The notes below the pieces were generated by a model. That model worked only from the letters and a program-made list of their open reading frames with translations. It was not told the DNA's origin and did not search any database. Below, piece after piece: positions 1-29,661 of a DNA stretch of 37,178 nt. The position numbers were made by a program, and so were the translations under genes. Location: contig JAADIO010000062.1 of the NCBI GenBank assembly GCA_013151235.1, positions 1-37,178 on the forward strand, read 5' to 3'. The stretch's first letter is position 1. Each line of letters starts with the position of its first letter. The DNA comes from Deltaproteobacteria bacterium (GTDB lineage: Bacteria > CG2-30-53-67).

Positions 1-1459
1 CACCAAGGTATTTAATAAATAACTCAAGTTGCTTTTTTTCTTTTTTATCTTGAAGTCTTTTCTTCAGATTACATGCAATCCACTCTGCAACAGATAAGGC
101 AATAATGGGACGACCTATAACATTTGTTTGGTATAGCGCAAAAAGTTCTTTGCTAACGGGTTTAGATGTGGCTTCATTGATTTGTTTTATTAACTTTTGA
201 AAATCGGCCTTCTTATTATGCTTGAATTCATCTTTAAGAAGTTGAAGAATTGTTTTTTTATCTTTTTTGCCAGCCCTCTTATTTCTCCCGGTAGCATTTG
301 CTTTTTTCTTTTCTTTGTCTTTGGCTGTTACAATTAATGATTCTGTTAATGCTTGAAATTCAGTCTCTTCCTTCTGCCGTATAGATTCCACTTTCCCCTG
401 GTTTTCGATAGAGAGCAATCTCTTTGCTTTACTAATCAAATCAATAGGAATAGCCTTTGACTTTGGAATTGGATAAAAAGGCATATAATCCTTTTTATAT
501 TCAATACAATCTAAAATGCTCGATTTGTTGTCTTTTCTTAAGACTCCCTTTATTTCATCTGAAAATTCGGTCACTGCCCTCCAAAGAAACTTTAATGCCA
601 TATTCGGAATTTCTATAACCTCACAATCGAAATTTGTTCCACTATTTATCACCATCCAAAGATTTAAAGCAACATGGTCAGGCAATTCCAAAATGTCCAA
701 ATCGTTCTTTAACTGATTTAGCTCATTCAATAAAACAAGTACTATACTTTTCTTCCCCTTCCCTGTCCCAATTGATGCAATTGAAACACCTTTATTCTGC
801 TCGGTCACCATAGAAATCTTGTCAATTGTATCATGATAGATACTCCTTACATGAGGAACAAGTAGGTTTGGGTCTGTATATTGAAAACATACAATCTTTC
901 CTTTCAACATCACAACTGCCAGAGAAGTCATTTGAACACAAAGAAGAGCAAAAGCCGACAGTTGAGGTTCTCGACTTGCGGCAGGTAACGCCCCAGCATC
1001 ATTAGTAATTGAACCAATAAGTGGAAAAGCATTTCTGCCAATATCCAGTCGCTGATTCTTCTTTAATATTCCTTCTTTTCTAAATCTCTCTGTAAGTAAT
1101 GCGAGCGATTTATTTGCTGAAGGGAACACCCCTGTGCATTCACATCGATTTGATGAATCTACCTTTACTGAAAGAGATTGTTCCAAGTCATTTACCAAAG
1201 TCTTCAGAATTTCTTGGTACTTTATCCTTTGTATTGGCCTATCCTTTGCTTTAACTTGACGATTCAAAAAGGCATTTGCAAATAAGCAGATATATGAATT
1301 TAGATGTTCATTCGCATCCATCAACCATTTCCCATCTCCAATTACTTCTCTAAAATCTTGTATTGTCATTTCTTCGGGAGAGTGTTTGTTGGCACGCACT
1401 ACAGCTACAGCCAACCCGGTATCCACCCACGGATTCCCCGTCCAATCAAACAATGGCAT
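1..1459 (-). CDS. cas8b1: Type I-B CRISPR-associated large subunit Cas8b1/Cst1 (3' end outside window)
   Basis: Absent from the ORF track because it runs off the window. Translated by hand from ATG 1459 (RBS GGAGG): MPLFDWTGNPWVDTGLAV...CECTG...GRNAFPLIGSITNDAGALPAASR...; the same frame is still open at the window edge. TGNPWVDxG and RxxFPLxGS are Cst1-type motifs, and the gene lies directly downstream of cas6. Confidence 0.85.
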   Translation of the reverse strand, partial: MPLFDWTGNPWVDTGLAVAVVRANKHSPEEMTIQDFREVIGDGKWLMDANEHLNSYICLFANAFLNRQVKAKDRPIQRIKYQEILKTLVNDLEQSLSVKVDSSNRCECTGVFPSANKSLALLTERFRKEGILKKNQRLDIGRNAFPLIGSITNDAGALPAASREPQLSAFALLCVQMTSLAVVMLKGKIVCFQYTDPNLLVPHVRSIYHDTIDKISMVTEQNKGVSIASIGTGKGKKSIVLVLLNELNQLKNDLDILELPDHVALNLWMVINSGTNFDCEVIEIPNMALKFLWRAVTEFSDEIKGVLRKDNKSSILDCIEYKKDYMPFYPIPKSKAIPIDLISKAKRLLSIENQGKVESIRQKEETEFQALTESLIVTAKDKEKKKANATGRNKRAGKKDKKTILQLLKDEFKHNKKADFQKLIKQINEATSKPVSKELFALYQTNVIGRPIIALSVAEWIACNLKKRLQDKKEKKQLELFIKYLG

Positions 1460-1507
1460 GATGACCTCCGTATTAAATAACTGTTCAAACCGTTTAAACA
1501 AACGATT

Positions 1508-2308
1508 TTATATCGCTATCATCCCCAGCCCGTTACTGTTCTTGCTCCCCAAACCGCATTCGTAGCCGACCCGGATCAGTTCGGGGTCTGTTTCCATTTC
1601 AAAGGGTGCGTTGAAGCATTTCAGCTTGATCGGGTTGCCGTTTTTCGCCTTGAAGGTAATGAGGCTCGTGATTTTGCCATTTTTGCGCTCGATGTAGTTT
1701 TTGTCAAATTCAAAGCGGAAGCGGTCCGGGTGGAGGGTCTTTTTGTGAATGATCTCGTATTTCCGGACCAGGTTGTTCCGGATATTCTCCACGAACTTTT
1801 CATTCTCTTTGAAGTAGTGCAGGGTCCAGGATTTCTTGTTCCCGGTTTCCGGGTCGTCGATGAAGGTGTCCATAAAGATCGGGGAGAGGCATTTGAAACG
1901 CATTATCTTGGTAAATTCCGGTTCCGGAAGGGTCTCGACACCGATGATGTTAAAGCGGATCATCTCCGAGCTTGTCATCAGGTCGAGCCTGTTGTTCTCA
2001 AAGATTCCCCGGACGATGTTTTCCAGGGACCGGTCCACGGGGGTGGAGATATACCAGTTCACCCTGCCGGTCCCGGTCTGCAACCCTTTCTTTGTGACGC
2101 GGTAAGGGCCGTCGATCTTCAATTCGGAGAAGGTAAAGAGCTTGAAATGTTTCCCCTGGTGGATGAATCCTTCATTATGAAGGAAAAGCGAGTAGGCCGC
2201 ATCCGAACTTCGGATCAGGTGGTAGAGCGCGCTCATCAGGTGATAGTTATAATTGAAGGGAAGAAGAAAACGGTCTCTTTGTTCCCGAAGGCTGATTTTC
2301 AATCTCAT
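1508..2308 (-). CDS. cas6: CRISPR-associated endoribonuclease Cas6
   Basis: LPFNYNY, FLHNEG, FKLFTFS and C-terminal G-rich loop GYECGLGSKNSNGLG. Confidence 0.96.
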   Translation of the reverse strand: MRLKISLREQRDRFLLPFNYNYHLMSALYHLIRSSDAAYSLFLHNEGFIHQGKHFKLFTFSELKIDGPYRVTKKGLQTGTGRVNWYISTPVDRSLENIVRGIFENNRLDLMTSSEMIRFNIIGVETLPEPEFTKIMRFKCLSPIFMDTFIDDPETGNKKSWTLHYFKENEKFVENIRNNLVRKYEIIHKKTLHPDRFRFEFDKNYIERKNGKITSLITFKAKNGNPIKLKCFNAPFEMETDPELIRVGYECGLGSKNSNGLGMIAI

Positions 2309-2361
2309 GGCTTTCCCTTATCGTCCGGTTGCTCAAAGCGTTTGAACTGTTTGAACAGATT

Positions 2362-2760
2362 TTATCCCTCCATCCCCACCAGCACCCCGACCTTCTCCCA
2401 GGGTGCCGCATCCCGGTCGATCCAGCCGATCTCGCCTTTCAGTGTATAGCCTTCGTCCATCAGACCGGCGAGGACGGAGTTGTCCGCCCGGGGGATGAAG
2501 CCGAGTTTGTGCTCTTTCCGGTAGACGGCGATGGCCCGGTCATCGTGGTGATTGGCCTTCTCCCGGACGAGCCGGAGGGGCTGCCCCTCCCGGAGCATGG
2601 GCAGGAGCTTTTCTCCATCGTAGTACTGGAATCCTGCGATCAGTGTCGCCAGAAGCAGGGGCGGTTTTTTCCGAGGCGGCGCCGTCCGGCCGGGCTTCGG
2701 CAGGAGAAAGGGAAGGATCGGCAGGGCGAGGATTGCTTTGAGAACTTCTCTTCGTTTCAT
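2362..2760 (-). CDS. HIRAN domain protein with N-terminal twin-arginine-like/hydrophobic leader
   Basis: IAGFQYY...LRLVREKANHHDDRAIAV...KLGFIPRADN is the HIRAN pattern; N-terminus MKRREVLKAILALPILPFLL; RBS AGGAGG. Confidence 0.88.
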   Translation of the reverse strand: MKRREVLKAILALPILPFLLPKPGRTAPPRKKPPLLLATLIAGFQYYDGEKLLPMLREGQPLRLVREKANHHDDRAIAVYRKEHKLGFIPRADNSVLAGLMDEGYTLKGEIGWIDRDAAPWEKVGVLVGMEG

Positions 2761-2796
2761 GGGTTCTCCTCCTGAAAAGGTTACTCTTTTCAGGGG

Positions 2797-2870
2797 ATCC
2801 TACCACCGACAGTGGACAGATCATGTCCACTGTTTGCAAAAATATTCAATCCCTTTGACCGATCCTGTCC
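2797..2870 (-). promoter_or_regulatory. Putative WYL-regulator binding sites and activator-dependent promoter of HIRAN-cas6-cas8
   Basis: Perfect inverted repeat ACAGTGGACA-gatca-TGTCCACTGT (2809-2833); degenerate second copy GACcgatcctGTCC (2857-2870); minus strand reads TGTCCA-N10-TAGGAT with TG extension and no canonical -35. Confidence 0.6.
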
Positions 2871-2874
2871 TCCC

Positions 2875-3876
2875 TCACCCTGTCCCCCTGTTTTTCCGTC
2901 CCTTGCCCGGCAGATAAAGCGCCTGCATTTTCTCAAGATCCTCCCGGATCTCTTCGATGAGCTTCTGCGGCTCCAGTACCTCAGCCTGCGGCCCGAAGCT
3001 TAAGATCCATCGCTTGATCTCCAGGGTTCCACCGACGGTGAGTTCAAGGACGATCGAACCGTCCCGGTTCCTTACAACTTCACGGCTTGGATGCCACTGG
3101 CGCTCTTCAATATACCGGGCGATCTCCGGGACGAACCGGATCCGCACCCGGACCGGCGTCTCGATCATGACTGAGAAGGCATGGCGCGTGTATTCCCCGA
3201 AGTCGAAGTTTTCGGGAATGAGGAAGTTTTCGTCCGTATGATTGATCAGGGAGATCCGGTCGACGTCGAACATCCGGATCTCACGGCGGAGATGACACAG
3301 GCCGATGAGGTAGACGGCGCCGTCGCGGTACCAGAGCCGGTAGGGATCGACCTTGCGGATTTTCGGTCTTGCGTCCTTCAGCCCCCGGTAGGCGATCTCG
3401 ACCCGCTCCTGTTTTGCCGCGGCGGCAAAGAGGCTGCGCAGAAAGTCACGGCGGCGGGAGTAGTCCTTGGCGGTGCTGAGACTGAGGGAGAAGATCCGTT
3501 TCATCCCCTCGAAGGAGGCCATCCTTTCGTCATCGAAGGTGGAGCGGATCTTGTGATGGATCGATTCGAGGGTGGGCCGGAGAAATGGCTCGCCGAAAGA
3601 TTTGAGGAGACGGGTCCCTTCTTTCAGTGCATAGAGTTCGGTGGGGAGGAAGGTGACGGGAGGGACTTCCTTGTACCCGTCGATGAGAGACCAGTATTTC
3701 CGCCGCCCCGCCTGTCGGTCGACAATGGGGAAAATCGTCGAGAGCTTGTCGAGATCCCTCCGGATGGTCCTGGCGTTGACGCCGTATTCCCGGGACAGTT
3801 CGGAAACGGTGGTTCTCCGTTTGCGGCAGAGGAGGTTGATGATTCCCCATTGCCGCTCCAACTGATCCACAGCCAT
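2875..3876 (-). CDS. HTH-WYL-WCX transcriptional regulator (PafB/PafC/DriD-like)
   Basis: N-terminal wHTH (TVSELSREYGVNARTIRRDL), WYL core (RKVDPYRLWYRDGAVYLIG...RMFDVDRI), WCX (WILSFGPQAEVLEP); ATG 3876 follows AAGGAGGT. Confidence 0.93.
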   Translation of the reverse strand: MAVDQLERQWGIINLLCRKRRTTVSELSREYGVNARTIRRDLDKLSTIFPIVDRQAGRRKYWSLIDGYKEVPPVTFLPTELYALKEGTRLLKSFGEPFLRPTLESIHHKIRSTFDDERMASFEGMKRIFSLSLSTAKDYSRRRDFLRSLFAAAAKQERVEIAYRGLKDARPKIRKVDPYRLWYRDGAVYLIGLCHLRREIRMFDVDRISLINHTDENFLIPENFDFGEYTRHAFSVMIETPVRVRIRFVPEIARYIEERQWHPSREVVRNRDGSIVLELTVGGTLEIKRWILSFGPQAEVLEPQKLIEEIREDLEKMQALYLPGKGRKNRGTG

Positions 3877-3910
3877 TTTCACCTCCTTCTTGTCCGGGCC
3901 CGGATTTATT

Positions 3911-3940
3911 AAGATAATAAGAAAGAAGCAGTCATGTCAA
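3911..3940 (-). promoter_or_regulatory. sigma70-like promoter of the WYL gene
   Basis: TTGACA-N18-TATCTT on the minus strand. Confidence 0.45.
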
Positions 3941-3979
3941 GAAAAGTTCAATGCGGAGGTTATTCGTTTACATCCTTAA

Positions 3980-4008
3980 TTGACAGTTCAGGCTTATTAC
4001 GATAAATT
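3980..4008 (+). promoter_or_regulatory. sigma70-like promoter, divergent from the WYL gene
   Basis: TTGACA-N17-TAAATT. Confidence 0.55.
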
Positions 4009-4618: not shown

Positions 4619-5401
4619 TCATCCCCTCCGAAAACAGGTGAGCTGACCGTCATCAAAGAAGATCTCGAAGGACCGGTCCAGAAAATCCTTCAGGCAGTCG
4701 GCAATACTGAAGATCGTCACGGGGTGAACCGTCCCCGCAAGGGCCCGGGCAAAGCGTTCATAGAAGACCCTTCCCGGACCTTCCGGACGGACCGGGCGGT
4801 AGATATAGATAAAATCGAACCGGGCGGGAGGGACGTCGAGAATATTGCCGTGGATCCATTCGACCCTCTCTTCCGGGATTCCCATCCAGTGTTGAAGTCT
4901 CTTCCCCTCGTCGATCATCGAACCGGAGAGTTCGATCTGGGTAGTCAAGGCATGCGGATAAAGCGACTGGAAGAGGAGCCCCTGGAACCCATTGCCCGCG
5001 CCGTAGTCGACAAAACGTATATCCTTTTTTATATGGGGCGCTGCATGGATCAGAGGCAAGAATCCGCCGGCATGGCACCAGTACCCGCCCCAGTGGTCGA
5101 TTTCACATCGCTCCGACGCGGCATACCCCATCGAGTTTCCGTGAAGCTGGACATAGGCCCGGACAAGATCCGCTTCCACCGCCTCGGGATCGCCCCGATC
5201 AAGACTCTTCGCCAGGGACTCCGGGAAGTCCGAAAGCCCAGGGTACCGTGCAAGGACCCCGGCGTCCCCTGTAAGAGGGACGAATATCCGGATCAGCCCG
5301 GCAAGAAGGGCAATCCTTTCCTCTCCCACCCCGGAATGCTCACAGATGGACCGGAACCGGCCGATCCACCGGCCGGCATTATCCTCTTCCCCAACAACCA
5401 T
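4619..5401 (-). CDS. Class I SAM-dependent methyltransferase-like protein
   Basis: Motif I FVDYGAGNG, acidic TQIELS, WIHGNI, FDFIYIYRP; RBS GGAGGT. Confidence 0.72.
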   Translation of the reverse strand: MVVGEEDNAGRWIGRFRSICEHSGVGEERIALLAGLIRIFVPLTGDAGVLARYPGLSDFPESLAKSLDRGDPEAVEADLVRAYVQLHGNSMGYAASERCEIDHWGGYWCHAGGFLPLIHAAPHIKKDIRFVDYGAGNGFQGLLFQSLYPHALTTQIELSGSMIDEGKRLQHWMGIPEERVEWIHGNILDVPPARFDFIYIYRPVRPEGPGRVFYERFARALAGTVHPVTIFSIADCLKDFLDRSFEIFFDDGQLTCFRRG

Positions 5402-24166: not shown

Positions 24167-24207
24167 AAAAAAAAGGCCAAGCAACTCTCACTGAGATGCT
24201 TGGCCTT
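24167..24207 (-). terminator. Intrinsic terminator of the rrn operon
   Basis: Stem AAGGCCAAGCA/TGCTTGGCCTT followed by a T-run on the minus strand. Confidence 0.8.
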
Positions 24208-24217
24208 CCTGATTTAA

Positions 24218-24330
<113 letters not shown>

Positions 24331-24428
24331 ACTTCAACAGCTTCGTAAAAAGTCCGTCTGCTGCGTTATACTTCGTCTTTTAGTCACTCATACAAACCGA
24401 CCAGATAAACTGAATTAAAAGCAAATAA

Positions 24429-27403
<2,975 letters not shown>

Positions 27404-27575
27404 CTATCTGCTTTCAAGTCAACTTACCTAGTTCTCGGTTTCATTGAGTGACTTTCTTCTGTCAAAGAGCAATCCGGACGTACGGTCCGGCGTCGGTTCT
27501 CTATACTTGAGAACTCGGAATTGGAAATGATGCCTAAATCATAATTTCCAATTCCGAACCCTCAATTGTCCAGAT

Positions 27576-27651
27576 TGGTGGAGGATAGCGGGATCGAACC
27601 GCTGACCTCCTGCGTGCAAGGCAGGCGCTCTCCCAGCTGAGCTAATCCCCC
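27576..27651 (-). tRNA. tRNA-Ala(TGC)
   Basis: GGGGGATTAGCTCAGCTGGGAGAGCGCCTGCCTTGCACGCAGG...TCCACCA. Confidence 0.97.
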
Positions 27652-27709
27652 ATTCTTAGAGGACAAATGACGGAGCTTCCAAATCATCCCGTCATCTGTC
27701 CTCTGAAAA

Positions 27710-27786
27710 TGGTGGGCCTAGGTAGATTTGAACTACCGACCTCGCGCTTATCAGGCGCGCGCTCTAACCAACTGAGCTATAGGCCC
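27710..27786 (-). tRNA. tRNA-Ile(GAT)
   Basis: GGGCCTATAGCTCAGTTGGTTAGAGCGCGCGCCTGATAAGCGCG...GGCCCACCA. Confidence 0.97.
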
Positions 27787-27936
27787 AGAGTCATCTATAC
27801 GGCCTATCGACCCGGTCGGTAGTTTTTACCGCCCTTCCCGGCTTTCAACCGGGACGCTCCAACCAACTGAGCTGTAGGCCCAGAGTCATCTATACGGCCT
27901 ATCGACCCGGTCGGCAACTTCCACCGCCCTTCCCGG
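27760..27936. repeat. 82-bp direct repeat with 95-bp period in the 16S-23S ITS
   Basis: 27760-27841 and 27855-27936 are nearly identical. Confidence 0.9.
27800..27881 (-). pseudogene. tRNA-Ile-derived pseudo-tRNA / tRNA-like structure in the ITS
   Basis: GGGCCTACAGCTCAGTTGGTTGGAGCG, then hairpin TCCCGG-TTGAAAG-CCGGGA, eroded T arm and TAGGCCG; no TTCRA loop, no CCA. Confidence 0.65.
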
Positions 27937-28024
27937 GATTATGCTGTTCACTAAATCATGTATATATTAGCCTGGCGGATATCAACCTAGGATGGTTCCG
28001 GAATCCCGAAGGATCCTCGAAGAA

Positions 28025-29587
<1,563 letters not shown>

Positions 29588-29661
29588 ACTGAAAAAAATT
29601 GATCCGTTTTGCTACGGATTTTCTACTGCTTCAAATCCGCCAGGCTAAAATATACATGATT

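What the first reader, a model, noticed from the sequence alone, without database searches (positions are those of the whole stretch)
2797..2870. Palindromic WYL box with PafBC-like 'TGTC..-N10-TA-N3-T' activator geometry, plus a second box four helical turns away
Seen: a perfect 10-bp-arm palindrome ACAGTGGACA-N5-TGTCCACTGT (core GAC-N7-GTC). On the coding strand the downstream half-site reads TGTCCA-N10-TAGGAT, with no TTGACA at the -35 position. A degenerate GAC-N7-GTC copy starts exactly 42 bp away (GAC at 2815 and 2857). Established: the mycobacterial PafBC promoter motif is TGTCGG-N10-TA-N3-T. Inference: this WYL protein activates the cas operon rather than repressing it as BrxR/CapW do, and the in-phase second box may add cooperativity.
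Basis: partly seen in the sequence, partly recalled or inferred. Interest (0 to 1): 0.72.

Follow-up and report, generated by a model that had tools for sequence, protein, structure and literature searches.

The report
WYL box promoter for defence operons
The palindrome is the likely docking site of the neighbouring WYL regulator, built into a promoter that lacks a -35 element, and the same module sits in front of several CRISPR-Cas and other anti-phage operons in related bacteria.

Summary
ACAGTGGACA-N5-TGTCCACTGT lies at 2809-2833, between a wHTH-WYL-WCX regulator gene (3882..2875, minus) and a HIRAN-cas6b-cas8b operon. On the coding strand it reads TGTCCA-N10-TAGGAT, with no -35.

It is not chance. 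The core GGACATGATCTGTCC, followed by N11 and TGn-TA(G/A)GAT, occurs 12 times in 4 of 14 genomes of the class and 0 times in the reversed-pattern control. These copies precede type I-C or I-B cas operons, cas6-CARF pairs, an HmaA-like helicase and a RhuM/PLD-SNF2 cluster.

In 74 loci of distant WYL homologues, TANNNT follows palindromic GAC-N7-GTC at a gap of 12 nt in 24 oriented sites. Every other gap has 0-2. This is the spacing published for PafBC, tGTCgg(N10)tA(N3)T.

By sequence the protein is closest to PafBC and DriD, not CapW.

Best reading (about 0.6): a homodimeric WYL activator of a -35-less promoter, like SiwR, DriD and PafBC. Repression remains possible (about 0.25).

The second box lacks conservation. 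However, it carries its own TATTTT at the same gap, one of only 6 such matches in the genome.

Verdict: new member of a known kind; interest moderate.

The parts
2875..3882 (-). wHTH-WYL-WCX regulator gene (335 aa from GTG 3882; ATG at 3876 is the start aligned with the orthologues)
   Evidence: Pfam WCX 8e-23, WYL 8e-19, HTH_DeoR 9e-7. PADLOC CRISPR-associated WYL 1e-43. It is the only WYL match in the genome. Orthologues are 63-69% identical.
3911..3940 (-). Promoter-like site of the WYL gene itself: TTGACA, 18 nt, TATCTT. No WYL box here.
   Evidence: Consensus scan. The best weight-matrix score in 3860-4000 is -1.6 bits.
2856..2870 (-). Box 2: GGACAGGATCGGTCA, with GAC-N7-GTC at 2857-2869, centred 42 bp upstream of box 1
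   Evidence: Part of one of the 6 genome-wide matches to GAC-N7-GTC-N12-TANNNT. Weight-matrix score 1.4 bits. Not conserved in the homologous promoter of G005.
2839..2844 (-). TATTTT, a -10-like hexamer 12 nt after the GTC of box 2. It is also part of the T-rich tract found upstream of the box in all 12 family modules.
   Evidence: match 2839-2869. Alignment A2: T20/T21 invariant or nearly so.
2809..2833 (.). Box 1: perfect palindrome ACAGTGGACA-N5-TGTCCACTGT. The conserved core GGACATGATCTGTCC (minus strand) is at 2814-2828.
2797..2805 (-). Extended -10: TGG-TAGGAT. TAGGAT is at 2802..2797, 11 nt after TGTCC.
   Evidence: gap of 11 in 11 of 12 modules, TGn in 11 of 12, TANNNT in 12 of 12.
2790..2790 (-). 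Predicted transcription start (inferred, not measured), 7 nt after the -10
   Evidence: Inference. Supported indirectly: in 3 of 3 cas6-type modules the start ATG lies 6-7 nt after the -10, as in leaderless mRNAs.
2771..2794 (.). Second inverted repeat CCTGAAAAG-N6-CTTTTCAGG. It overlaps the predicted start and the 5' UTR and abuts the Shine-Dalgarno GGAGGAG (2766-2772).
   Evidence: Conserved in the 3 HIRAN-type promoters. Weak as an RNA hairpin: -5.1 to -7.8 kcal/mol, z -1.2 to -1.8.
2362..2760 (-). First gene of the controlled operon: HIRAN-domain protein, 132 aa, with a signal-like N-terminus
   Evidence: Pfam HIRAN 4e-15. Orthologues hold the same place in G005 and G001.
1508..2308 (-). 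cas6b
   Evidence: TIGR01877 4e-34. PADLOC Cas6b 8e-61.
2..1501 (-). cas8b, cut by the contig end. GC 35%, against about 55% for the rest of the window.
   Evidence: PADLOC Cas8b 7e-24. Composition.

Best explanation
Box 1 is the DNA site of the WYL regulator encoded just upstream. It forms a composite promoter that has no -35 element.

**Inferred mechanism**
- The regulator binds as a homodimer. Each winged helix reads one GAC/GTC half-site through a pair of arginines.
- The promoter-proximal half-site TGTCC sits at about -28 to -24, and the distal one covers the place of a -35.
- TGn-TAGGAT, 11 nt downstream, is the -10.
- The core promoter alone is weak. When the WYL domain binds its ligand, the dimer docks and recruits or adapts the housekeeping RNA polymerase. 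The ligand is probably single-stranded nucleic acid made during infection or DNA damage.
- This switches on HIRAN-cas6b-cas8b and, from a second copy of the module, another defence locus.

**Shown here**
- The letters themselves.
- The rigid box-to--10 spacing across 12 family modules and 24 distant ones.
- The absence of a -35.
- The defence genes downstream.
- Sequence similarity to DriD and PafBC, including the arginine pair.

**Inferred, not shown**
- Binding by this protein.
- Dimer state.
- Direction of regulation (activation).
- Ligand.
- Transcription start.
For: **1. A conserved module.** GACA-N-R-ATCTGTCC-N10-12-TANNNT gives 12 matches in 4 of 14 genomes of the class. The reversed control gives 0.
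- The gap is 11 nt in 11 of 12 modules.
- TGn precedes the -10 in 11 of 12.
- The best -35 match is at most 3 of 6 in 12 of 12.
- The asymmetric spacer TGATC always has the same orientation relative to the -10.

**2. Occurrence with the regulator.**
- All 4 genomes with the module have a 64-69% orthologue of the WYL protein.
- None of the 3 genomes of the same family without an orthologue (G002, G006, G007) has the module.
- Neither do the 5 genomes of the sister family f2, three of which carry only 28-34% WYL homologues.

**3. Targets.**:

| Module | Genes downstream |
|---|---|
| G005 C13, G001 C160 | HIRAN-cas3-cas5c-cas8c |
| Window | HIRAN-cas6b-cas8b |
| G005 C37, G001 C233; fragment at C145 | cas6-CARF |
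| G001 C245 | HmaA-like SNF2 helicase |
| G001 C83 and C135 | RhuM family, DUF4325, PLD-SNF2 |
| G004 C35 | Cas3 N-terminal remnant, cas5c, cas8c, cas7 |

The tail of contig C21 in this genome is 92% identical (184 of 200) to the leader that precedes the RhuM-family gene in G001.

**4. Generality.** In 74 loci of 33-42% homologues from several phyla:
- GAC-N7-GTC-N12/13-TANNNT occurs 35 times, against 8 in the control. 32 of these have symmetric flanks, in 28 of 74 loci, and 19 of the 32 lie within 300 nt of the WYL gene.
- Among 128 oriented palindromic sites, TANNNT falls at a gap of 12 in 24, and 0-2 times at each other gap from 2 to 29.
- In L130 and L140/L143 the order is WYL, box, cas3.

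**5. Same spacing as PafBC.** The published motif is tGTCgg(N10)tA(N3)T with a -26 element and no -35 (PMC8635444).
- SiwR is a homodimer with a 19-bp palindrome between -35 and -10 and an essential -26 region (PMC10693628).
- DriD binds ATACGAC-N7-GTCGTAT over the -35 position, at an identical distance from the -10 in all its promoters (PMC13004042).

**6. Protein similarity**:

| Solved relative | E-value |
|---|---|
| PafBC | 1e-9 |
| DriD, full length | 2.4e-8 |
| PafB | 2e-6 |
| 7tb5 (labelled only 'WYL domain-containing protein'; CapW by recall) | 0.74 |
| BrxR | not returned |

- In that alignment R38 and R42 pair with the DriD arginines that read the two guanines of each half-site (Arg37 and Arg41 in PMC10853764).
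- R41 pairs with Glu40, which contacts the outer C. This fits the change from CGAC to GGAC.

**7. Local contrast.** The WYL gene's own promoter and the divergent neighbour both have a perfect TTGACA. A -35 is therefore used in this organism and is specifically missing at the box promoters.

**8. The -10 looks real.** In 3 of 3 cas6-type modules the start ATG lies 6-7 nt after the -10.
Against: - There are no expression, binding or start-site data; all support is comparative.
- An operator that covers -38 to -24 could equally block RNA polymerase.
- The TGn extended -10 (11 of 12) together with the partial -35 aTGAtc at 16 nt might give a promoter that works unaided, as a repressor would need.
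- The only WYL protein shown to control an adjacent CRISPR locus, Sll7009, is described as a repressor (passage in PMC9122601). Defence-associated WYL proteins studied so far are repressors (CapW, BrxR).
- Two genomes with a 63-64% orthologue (G003, 84% complete; G008, 89% complete) have no module and no related palindrome near the gene.
- The family modules share flanking sequence (T-tract, partly the gap). Part of the constant spacing within the family may therefore be common descent. The distant loci answer this only in part, because their promoters may also descend with the gene.
- Of eight DriD residues that contact ssDNA, four are identical in the pairwise alignment, one is conservative (Trp to Phe), and three differ, including Arg207 to Asp. 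The ligand is therefore uncertain.
- The genome is a metagenome bin. The rest of the cas operon is not in it.
Confidence: 0.6

Rival explanations
1. The box is a repressor operator. The WYL dimer sits over the -35 and spacer region of an extended -10 promoter and blocks RNA polymerase until a ligand made during infection releases it, as CapW, BrxR and Sll7009 do.
For: - The site covers about -38 to -24.
- TGn is present in 11 of 12 modules, and there is a 3-of-6 -35-like hexamer at 16 nt.
- Defence-linked WYL regulators characterised so far are repressors (abstract of PMC13622015 in the listing).
- Sll7009 represses a type I-D locus (passage in PMC9122601).
Against: - The published repressor sites overlap the -10 (CapW) or lie downstream of it (BrxR), not upstream at a fixed distance.
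- A roadblock does not need 1-bp-exact spacing, yet 24 distant sites sit at gap 12 and 0-2 at any other gap.
- The -10 is kept non-consensus: TAGGAT or TAAGAT in 10 of 12.
- There is no box at the regulator's own promoter.
- By sequence the protein is nearer to PafBC and DriD than to CapW.
Confidence: 0.25
2. The module is a repeated, possibly mobile, promoter cassette. It is read by another factor or by RNA polymerase alone, and its nearness to the WYL gene is incidental.
For: - There are 2-6 copies per genome, sharing a T-tract and in part terminator-like upstream sequence.
- One copy lies by an IS200-like transposase gene and a contig end.
- Two orthologue-bearing genomes lack it.
Against: - The GAC-N7-GTC core fits the arginine pair of this protein family.
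- The module is found only in genomes with the orthologue.
- In distant phyla a variant box lies within 300 nt of the WYL homologue in 19 of 32 cases.
- A WYL paralogue in G004 has its own variant box, TGACAGGATCTGTCA-N11-TAAGGT.
Confidence: 0.08
3. The palindrome acts as an RNA hairpin at the 3' end of the WYL transcript, as a terminator or stabiliser. Alternatively it is a sigma-54 promoter.
For: If transcribed, the 10-bp stem folds at -17.5 kcal/mol, z -4.8. No terminator separates the WYL gene from the box.
Against: - No U-tract follows; the sequence after the stem is CGGTGG. The terminator scan found nothing there.
- Other copies have only 7-nt arms.
- The core is conserved as sequence, with no compensatory changes, and the outer arms break symmetry in several copies.
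- Sigma-54 needs GG-N10-GC (recalled consensus). The corresponding position here reads TC.
Confidence: 0.03

Closest known systems
PafBC-dependent promoters of mycobacteria (sigma adaptation)
   Same: Same spacing, GTC-N12-TANNNT, equal to tGTCgg(N10)tA(N3)T. The element lies at about -26, there is no -35, and the regulator is of the WYL family (PMC8635444, passages). PafBC is the best PDB sequence match.
   Different: PafBC is a PafB/PafC heterodimer that reads a single half-site, and its second HTH contacts sigma region 4. Here there is one gene, a two-fold symmetric site, and a defence regulon rather than a DNA-repair regulon, in Nitrospirota rather than Actinobacteria.
SiwR of Mycobacterium smegmatis
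   Same: Homodimeric WYL activator encoded next to its target operon. It has a 19-bp imperfect palindrome between -35 and -10 and an essential -26 region (PMC10693628, passages). This is the closest overall architecture.
   Different: The conserved triplet reported there is GGA. It has a single target operon of DinB-like genes, responds to oxidative or genotoxic stress, and is actinobacterial.
DriD of Caulobacter crescentus
   Same: Homodimeric wHTH-3HB-WYL-WCX protein with a palindrome whose core is GAC-N7-GTC. [quoted passage not shown] It aligns over its full length at E 2.4e-8, and both guanine-reading arginines are aligned.
   Different: The outer base is C (CGAC) rather than G (GGAC). 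[quoted passage not shown] The regulon is DNA-damage genes. Three of eight ssDNA-contact residues differ here.
DdaA of Acinetobacter / Moraxellaceae
   Same: Palindromic box with the same layout, CGWCA-N5-TGWCG against GGACA-N5-TGTCC. It is a WYL activator that directly raises CRISPR-Cas (type I-F) and restriction-modification expression (PMC12392091, sections 26 and 31 and passages; PMC13010146, passages).
   Different: [quoted passage not shown] Its regulon is mostly DNA repair, and the gene is not cas-adjacent. No sequence comparison with DdaA could be made here.
CapW and BrxR (defence-island WYL repressors); Sll7009
   Same: wHTH-WYL-WCX dimers encoded beside defence systems that bind inverted repeats. 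BrxR has 11-bp arms and a 5-bp spacer.
   Different: Their sites overlap the -10 (CapW) or lie downstream of it (BrxR), and they control the regulator's own promoter. Here the site lies upstream of the -10 at a fixed gap, there is no box at the regulator's promoter, and sequence similarity is weak (7tb5 at E 0.74; BrxR not returned).

Membership tests
PafBC-type hybrid promoter (-26 element plus -10, no -35) | GTC-containing element with a fixed N12 gap to TANNNT | tested here: met
   Window: TGTCCA-N10-TAGGAT. 11 of 12 family modules. Peak of 24 at gap 12 in distant loci. Motif as published.
PafBC-type hybrid promoter (-26 element plus -10, no -35) | No -35 hexamer | tested here: met
   Best match at most 3 of 6 in 12 of 12 modules.
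PafBC-type hybrid promoter (-26 element plus -10, no -35) | Heterodimeric regulator (PafB plus PafC) that reads one half-site | tested here: not met
   One WYL gene in the genome, and the site is a two-fold palindrome.
PafBC-type hybrid promoter (-26 element plus -10, no -35) | The regulator inserts between the DNA and sigma region 4, and transcription depends on it | not testable with these tools
   Needs in vitro transcription or a structure.
DriD/DdaA/SiwR-type homodimeric WYL activator site | Palindrome with a GAC-N7-GTC core | tested here: met
   Invariant in alignment A2.
DriD/DdaA/SiwR-type homodimeric WYL activator site | Regulator with wHTH, WYL and WCX domains and two arginines (i, i+4) in the recognition helix | tested here: met
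   Pfam domains. R38 and R42 align with the DriD guanine readers. RTIRRDL is conserved in 6 of 7 aligned orthologues, with one reading RTILRDL.
DriD/DdaA/SiwR-type homodimeric WYL activator site | Site at a constant distance from the -10 in every regulated promoter | tested here: met
DriD/DdaA/SiwR-type homodimeric WYL activator site | Homodimer; ssDNA-stimulated DNA binding; activation | not tested
   No complex prediction or experiment was run. ssDNA-contact residues are only partly conserved.
CapW/BrxR-type repressor operator | Palindrome that overlaps the -10 or lies downstream of it | tested here: not met
   The box ends 11 nt upstream of the -10. Published positions.
CapW/BrxR-type repressor operator | Operator in the regulator's own promoter (autoregulation) | tested here: not met
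   Best weight-matrix score in 3860-4000 is -1.6 bits. In the G004 paralogue locus, however, the variant box does precede an operon that contains the paralogue.
Intrinsic terminator | GC-rich stem followed by a U-tract | tested here: not met
   No terminator-like site at the box. The tail reads CGGTGG.
Type I-B CRISPR-Cas operon (the controlled genes) | cas6b and cas8b present; cas7, cas5, cas3 and cas1-2 present | tested here: inconclusive
   Cas6b and Cas8b are found. The operon runs off the contig, and Cas1 and the DevR-type Cas7 are not found in the bin. A CRISPR array lies on contig C70.

The most novel reading that the evidence does not exclude
One cas-adjacent WYL sensor may be the master activator of a scattered, multi-system immune regulon. 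The regulon would include type I and type III-style CRISPR-Cas genes, an Hma-like helicase and a RhuM/PLD-SNF2 cluster. Control would run through a portable, -35-less promoter cassette: T-tract, GGACA-N5-TGTCC, N11, TGn-TAGGAT. The same rule, GAC-N7-GTC-N12-TANNNT, would hold for the whole CRISPR-associated WYL clade in Nitrospirota, Desulfobacterota, Acidobacteriota and others. That would mean PafBC-style sigma adaptation by a symmetric dimer is the ancestral way these defence-linked WYL proteins work, and cas cassettes (I-C here replaced by I-B) would be swapped beneath a fixed WYL-box-HIRAN control head. In the window, two such modules in tandem, 42 bp apart, would give a cooperative or two-step switch.
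Probability: 0.35. Interest if true: 0.75.

Novelty: new member of a known kind. Interest (0 to 1): 0.58.

Why it matters
How bacteria decide when to express CRISPR-Cas and other costly defences is poorly understood.
- WYL proteins have been linked to cas loci for a decade, yet the characterised defence-linked ones are repressors.
- The comparative evidence here points the other way for a large cas-associated clade. It suggests an on-demand activator that uses the promoter geometry solved for PafBC, SiwR and DriD, in phyla where no such regulator has been studied.
- The evidence yields a precise, testable sequence rule that predicts regulons from sequence alone.
- It suggests that several unrelated defence systems in one cell are wired to the same sensor.
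- The idea that a WYL activator can raise CRISPR-Cas expression is already published for DdaA. The advance is therefore one of breadth and mechanism, not of principle.

Tried and rejected
- **CRISPR array at 24-29.6 kb.** I took this ORF-free stretch for an array. The sequence reads as an rRNA operon with tRNA genes. This is my reading; no Rfam search was run.
- **Related loci from the single protein.** The search found none. The alignment query worked.
- **Sequencing runs.** None was listed, and no RNA holder was listed.
- **HIRAN orthologue.** Not found with this query in G002, G003, G004, G006 or G008.
- **Inverted repeats near the WYL orthologues of G003 and G008.** None resembles the box.
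- **Intermediate weight-matrix hits in this genome (12-18 bits).** The four examined lack the TGTCC half-site and a -10 at the right gap. Only two sites exceed 20 bits.
- **Loose pattern GACA-N5-TGTCC in five relatives.** It is no more frequent than its reversed control. Only the version with the conserved spacer and -10 is informative.
- **The second genomic site as a CRISPR leader.** Rejected. The tail of C21 matches the leader of a RhuM-family gene in G001 and carries no copy of the C70 repeat.
- **Terminator and sigma-54 readings.** Rejected; see rival explanations.
- **The 5' UTR hairpin as a strong RNA structure.** It is weak, with z -1.2 to -1.8.
- **Not attempted.** Structure or complex prediction of the dimer, and a tree placing this protein among DdaA, DriD, PafB, CapW and BrxR.
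Full report
**1. What is there**

The window is a whole contig of a 73-contig, 2.62-Mb genome bin. The closest named records returned for its WYL protein are titled as uncultured Nitrospirota or Nitrospirae.

Around the finding all genes run on the minus strand:

| Coordinates | Gene | Evidence |
|---|---|---|
| 3882..2875 | 335-aa protein with HTH, WYL and WCX domains | |
| 2760..2362 | 132-aa HIRAN-domain protein | |
| 2308..1508 | Cas6b | |
| 1501..2 | Cas8b, cut by the contig end | |

- GC content drops from about 56% over the WYL and HIRAN genes to 35% over cas8b.
- The finding lies in the 114-nt gap between the WYL stop codon and the HIRAN start codon.
- This is the only WYL gene detected in the genome.

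**2. The observation**

- The palindrome is ACAGTGGACA (2809-2818), GATCA, TGTCCACTGT (2824-2833).
- On the coding strand it reads TGTCCA, 10 nt, TAGGAT (2802..2797), preceded by TGG, so it is an extended -10.
- No hexamer at 16-18 nt from the -10 matches TTGACA better than 3 of 6.
- The WYL gene's own promoter-like site and that of the divergent neighbour both carry a perfect TTGACA.
- Perfect inverted repeats of this size occur at 4 places in the window. Thirty Markov simulations gave 0.37 on average.

**3. The same module elsewhere**

The core 15-mer GGACATGATCTGTCC occurs exactly twice in the genome.
- The second copy is 183 nt from the end of contig C21.
- It is followed by 12 nt and TAAGAT.

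A search of the 14 available genomes of the class used GACA-N-R-ATCTGTCC, 10-12 nt, TANNNT.
- It returned 12 matches in 4 genomes and none for the reversed control.

In alignment:
- The core is invariant or nearly so.
- The gap to the -10 is 11 nt in 11 of 12 modules.
- TGn precedes the -10 in 11 of 12.
- The -10 reads TAGGAT or TAAGAT in 10 of 12.
- A T-rich tract lies upstream.
- The asymmetric spacer TGATC always faces the same way relative to the -10.

The bases between box and -10 vary while the length does not.

Occurrence with the regulator:
- All four module-bearing genomes carry a 64-69% orthologue of the WYL protein.
- The three genomes of the same family without an orthologue have no module.
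- Against a simple correlation, two genomes with a 63-64% orthologue (84% and 89% complete) have none either. They also have no related palindrome near the gene.

**4. What the modules drive**

| Module | Genes downstream |
|---|---|
| G005 C13, G001 C160 | HIRAN, Cas3, Cas5c, Cas8c (type I-C) |
| Window | the same HIRAN gene, then low-GC Cas6b, Cas8b (type I-B) |
| G005 C37, G001 C233 | Cas6 and a CARF/Csx1-family protein |
| G001 C145 | a Cas6 fragment |
| G001 C245 | a 1222-aa HmaA-like SNF2 helicase |
| G001 C83 and C135 (near-identical copies) | RhuM-family protein, DUF4325, PLD-SNF2 helicase |
| G004 C35 | a 64-aa Cas3 N-terminal remnant behind a 3-kb insertion, then Cas5c, Cas8c, Cas7 |
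| G005 C6 | a run of N, then an IS200-like transposase gene |

- In the window, the control head appears to have been kept while the cas cassette was exchanged.
- The tail of C21 in this genome is 92% identical (184 of 200) to the leader of the RhuM-family cluster.
- That cluster's genes are not in the bin.
- A WYL paralogue (47% identical) in G004 has its own variant, TGACAGGATCTGTCA, 11 nt, TAAGGT.
- The variant stands in front of an ARPP-1 protein, the paralogue itself, a Schlafen/AlbA_2 protein and DarT/Macro.
- The regulon is therefore made of defence genes, as far as it can be seen.

**5. The rule holds far beyond this family**

Seventy-four loci encode 33-42% homologues. They come from records titled Desulfobacterota, Acidobacteriota, Nitrospira, Binatia and others.

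| Measure | Result |
|---|---|
| GAC-N7-GTC-N12/13-TANNNT matches | 35 |
| Reversed-control matches | 8 |
| Matches with symmetric flanks | 32 |
| Loci carrying those | 28 of 74 |
| Of the 32, within 300 nt of the WYL gene | 19 |
| ... just after its stop on the same strand, as here | 11 |
| ... upstream and divergent | 7 |
| ... in the opposite orientation | 1 |

A test that does not presuppose the gap took all 128 oriented palindromic GAC-N7-GTC sites.
- TANNNT falls at a gap of 12 nt in 24 of them.
- It falls 0-2 times at every other gap from 2 to 29.

Downstream genes:
- Cas3c (L130) and Cas3g (L140, L143).
- ARPP-1 proteins.
- A Cas4-like/DUF2779 nuclease.
- An RNase T-family exonuclease.
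- An IetA-like AAA ATPase.
- Fic, VWA and MerR proteins.
- Proteins with no family match.

**6. Comparison with what is in print**

- **PafBC.** The motif is tGTCgg(N10)tA(N3)T at -23 to -28, on promoters with a canonical -10 and no -35. PafBC inserts between the DNA and sigma region 4 (PMC8635444, passages). GTC, two bases and N10 make the same 12-nt gap.
- **SiwR.**
  - It is a homodimeric WYL activator encoded beside its target.
  - It has a 19-bp imperfect palindrome between -35 and -10.
  - Its -26 region is essential (PMC10693628, passages).
- **DriD.**
  - It is a homodimer that binds ATACGAC-N7-GTCGTAT over the -35 position.
  - Its Arg37 and Arg41 read the two guanines of each half-site, and Glu40 contacts the outer C (PMC10853764, passages).
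- **DdaA.**
  - It binds CGWCA-N5-TGWCG.
  - It activates DNA-repair genes, restriction-modification systems and the type I-F CRISPR-Cas locus.
  - Its box is reported about 50 bp upstream of the start (PMC12392091, sections 26 and 31 and passages; PMC13010146, passages).
- **The repressors.** CapW palindromes overlap the -10 (PMC9122588, passages). The BrxR repeats lie downstream of the -10 of its own promoter (PMC9122601, passages).

**7. The protein**

Against solved structures:

| Match | E-value |
|---|---|
| PafBC | 1e-9 |
| DriD, aligned over residues 23-316 | 2.4e-8 |
| PafB | 2e-6 |
| 7tb5 (labelled only 'WYL domain-containing protein'; I recall it as CapW) | 0.74 |
| BrxR | not returned |

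In the DriD alignment:
- R38 and R42 fall on the two guanine-reading arginines.
- R41 falls on Glu40, which would fit the outer base being G rather than C.
- RTIRRDL is conserved in 6 of 7 aligned orthologues.

Of the eight DriD residues listed as ssDNA contacts:
- Four are identical here.
- One is conservative.
- Three differ, including Arg207 aligned to Asp.

The ligand may therefore not be the same. This mapping rests on one low-identity pairwise alignment.

**8. Mechanism**

The best-supported reading is a composite, activator-dependent promoter.
- A symmetric WYL dimer binds at about -38 to -24. Its proximal half-site sits where the PafBC -26 element sits.
- It supplies the contacts that a -35 would otherwise give.

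The arguments are:
- the single-base precision of the spacing across phyla;
- the systematic lack of a -35 next to genes whose neighbours have one;
- a -10 kept away from consensus;
- the positions of published repressor sites;
- the protein's nearer kinship to the activators.

None of this is a measurement.
- A repressor that covers the -35 region of an extended -10 promoter is the main rival. I give it about one chance in four.
- That the box is this protein's site at all I hold at about 0.85.
- That it activates, at about 0.6.

**9. The second box**

By itself it is weak:
- Matches of its quality are at chance level.
- It changes the otherwise invariant T of TGTC to G.
- It scores 1.4 bits.
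- The homologous sequence in G005 lacks it.

However, it is followed after exactly 12 nt by TATTTT (2844..2839).
- The whole stretch 2839-2869 is thus one of only six matches to GAC-N7-GTC-N12-TANNNT in the genome. Box 1 is another, on the same strand, 42 nt away.
- At the control rate of 18 per genome, the chance of a neighbour within 100 nt is below 0.001. This estimate was made after seeing the data.
- Part of the TATTTT belongs to the T-tract that every module has, so the coincidence reduces to the position of box 2.
- I leave it open, at about 0.4 that it is functional. It could act either as a second WYL-dependent promoter or as an auxiliary site.

**10. Verdict**

- The closest analogues are SiwR and DriD rather than PafBC itself.
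- Because DdaA already shows a WYL activator raising CRISPR-Cas expression, this is a new member of a known kind.
- It adds a clear sequence rule and a multi-system defence regulon.

Noticed in passing
window 1-2760, compared with L025 (G005 C13) and L063 (G001 C160): The head made of the WYL gene, the box and the HIRAN gene is conserved. It is followed by type I-C genes (cas3, cas5c, cas8c) in two relatives, but by low-GC type I-B genes (cas6b, cas8b; GC 35-43%) in the window. This looks like a cas cassette exchange beneath a fixed control region.
   Followed up: partly
window 2362-2760 (minus): The first gene of the operon encodes a 132-aa HIRAN-domain protein whose N-terminus (MKRREVLKAILALPILPFLLP...) looks like a twin-arginine or signal peptide. 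That is odd for a DNA-end-binding domain. It holds the same place in three genomes and matches PADLOC candidate PDC-M03B.
   Followed up: partly
window 2771-2794: A second perfect inverted repeat, CCTGAAAAG-N6-CTTTTCAGG, overlaps the predicted transcription start and abuts the Shine-Dalgarno sequence. It is conserved in the three HIRAN-type promoters, with differing loops. It is weak as RNA, so it could be a DNA site for another regulator.
   Followed up: partly
window about 2330-2355; L006 2460-3390; after the WYL stop in L025 and L010; G000 C30:3913-3956 and C48:23832-23893: Clusters of GTTCAAAC / TTGAAC repeats lie at the junctions between gene modules. In G004 they form long arrays flanking an inserted gene. 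The hexamer is not enriched genome-wide (1291 found, about 1280 expected). Their function is unknown.
   Followed up: partly
L060, L062, L064 (cas6-type modules): The cas6 start ATG lies 6-7 nt after the -10 hexamer, with no Shine-Dalgarno sequence. These genes would be read from leaderless mRNAs.
   Followed up: partly
G000 C21:67400-68454 (L002 about 640-1698): Two tRNA-like genes are followed by a duplicated tRNA 3' end, as at an island integration site. Then come the second box and a leader with tandem repeats of about 40 nt (GGGTTTTGCCTCCTTCATCCC) at which the contig ends.
   Followed up: partly
window 24200-29600: This ORF-free stretch reads as an rRNA operon (5S, 23S, tRNAs, 16S) on the minus strand, not a CRISPR array. 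The CRISPR array of this genome (36-nt repeat ending GAAAC, at least 9 copies) is at the start of contig C70.
   Followed up: partly
window 2875-3882 versus PADLOC model PDLC01766: The WYL protein matches the first 316 positions of a 1009-position 'Cas3c' model (E 2e-34). WYL-Cas3 fusions therefore exist among the sequences behind that model.
   Followed up: no
window 2819-2823 and all family boxes: The box spacer contains GATC in 11 of 12 family modules. This could be a methylation site that modulates binding. The gene at 4619-5401 has a weak methyltransferase-domain match and a mad2-like match.
   Followed up: no
L028 7972-11003 (G004 C35): An insertion of about 3.3 kb sits between the box and the cas genes. 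It duplicates the Cas3 N-terminal codons and carries a PDC-S05 (RhuM-like) gene and a gene with pAgo-associated domain matches.
   Followed up: partly
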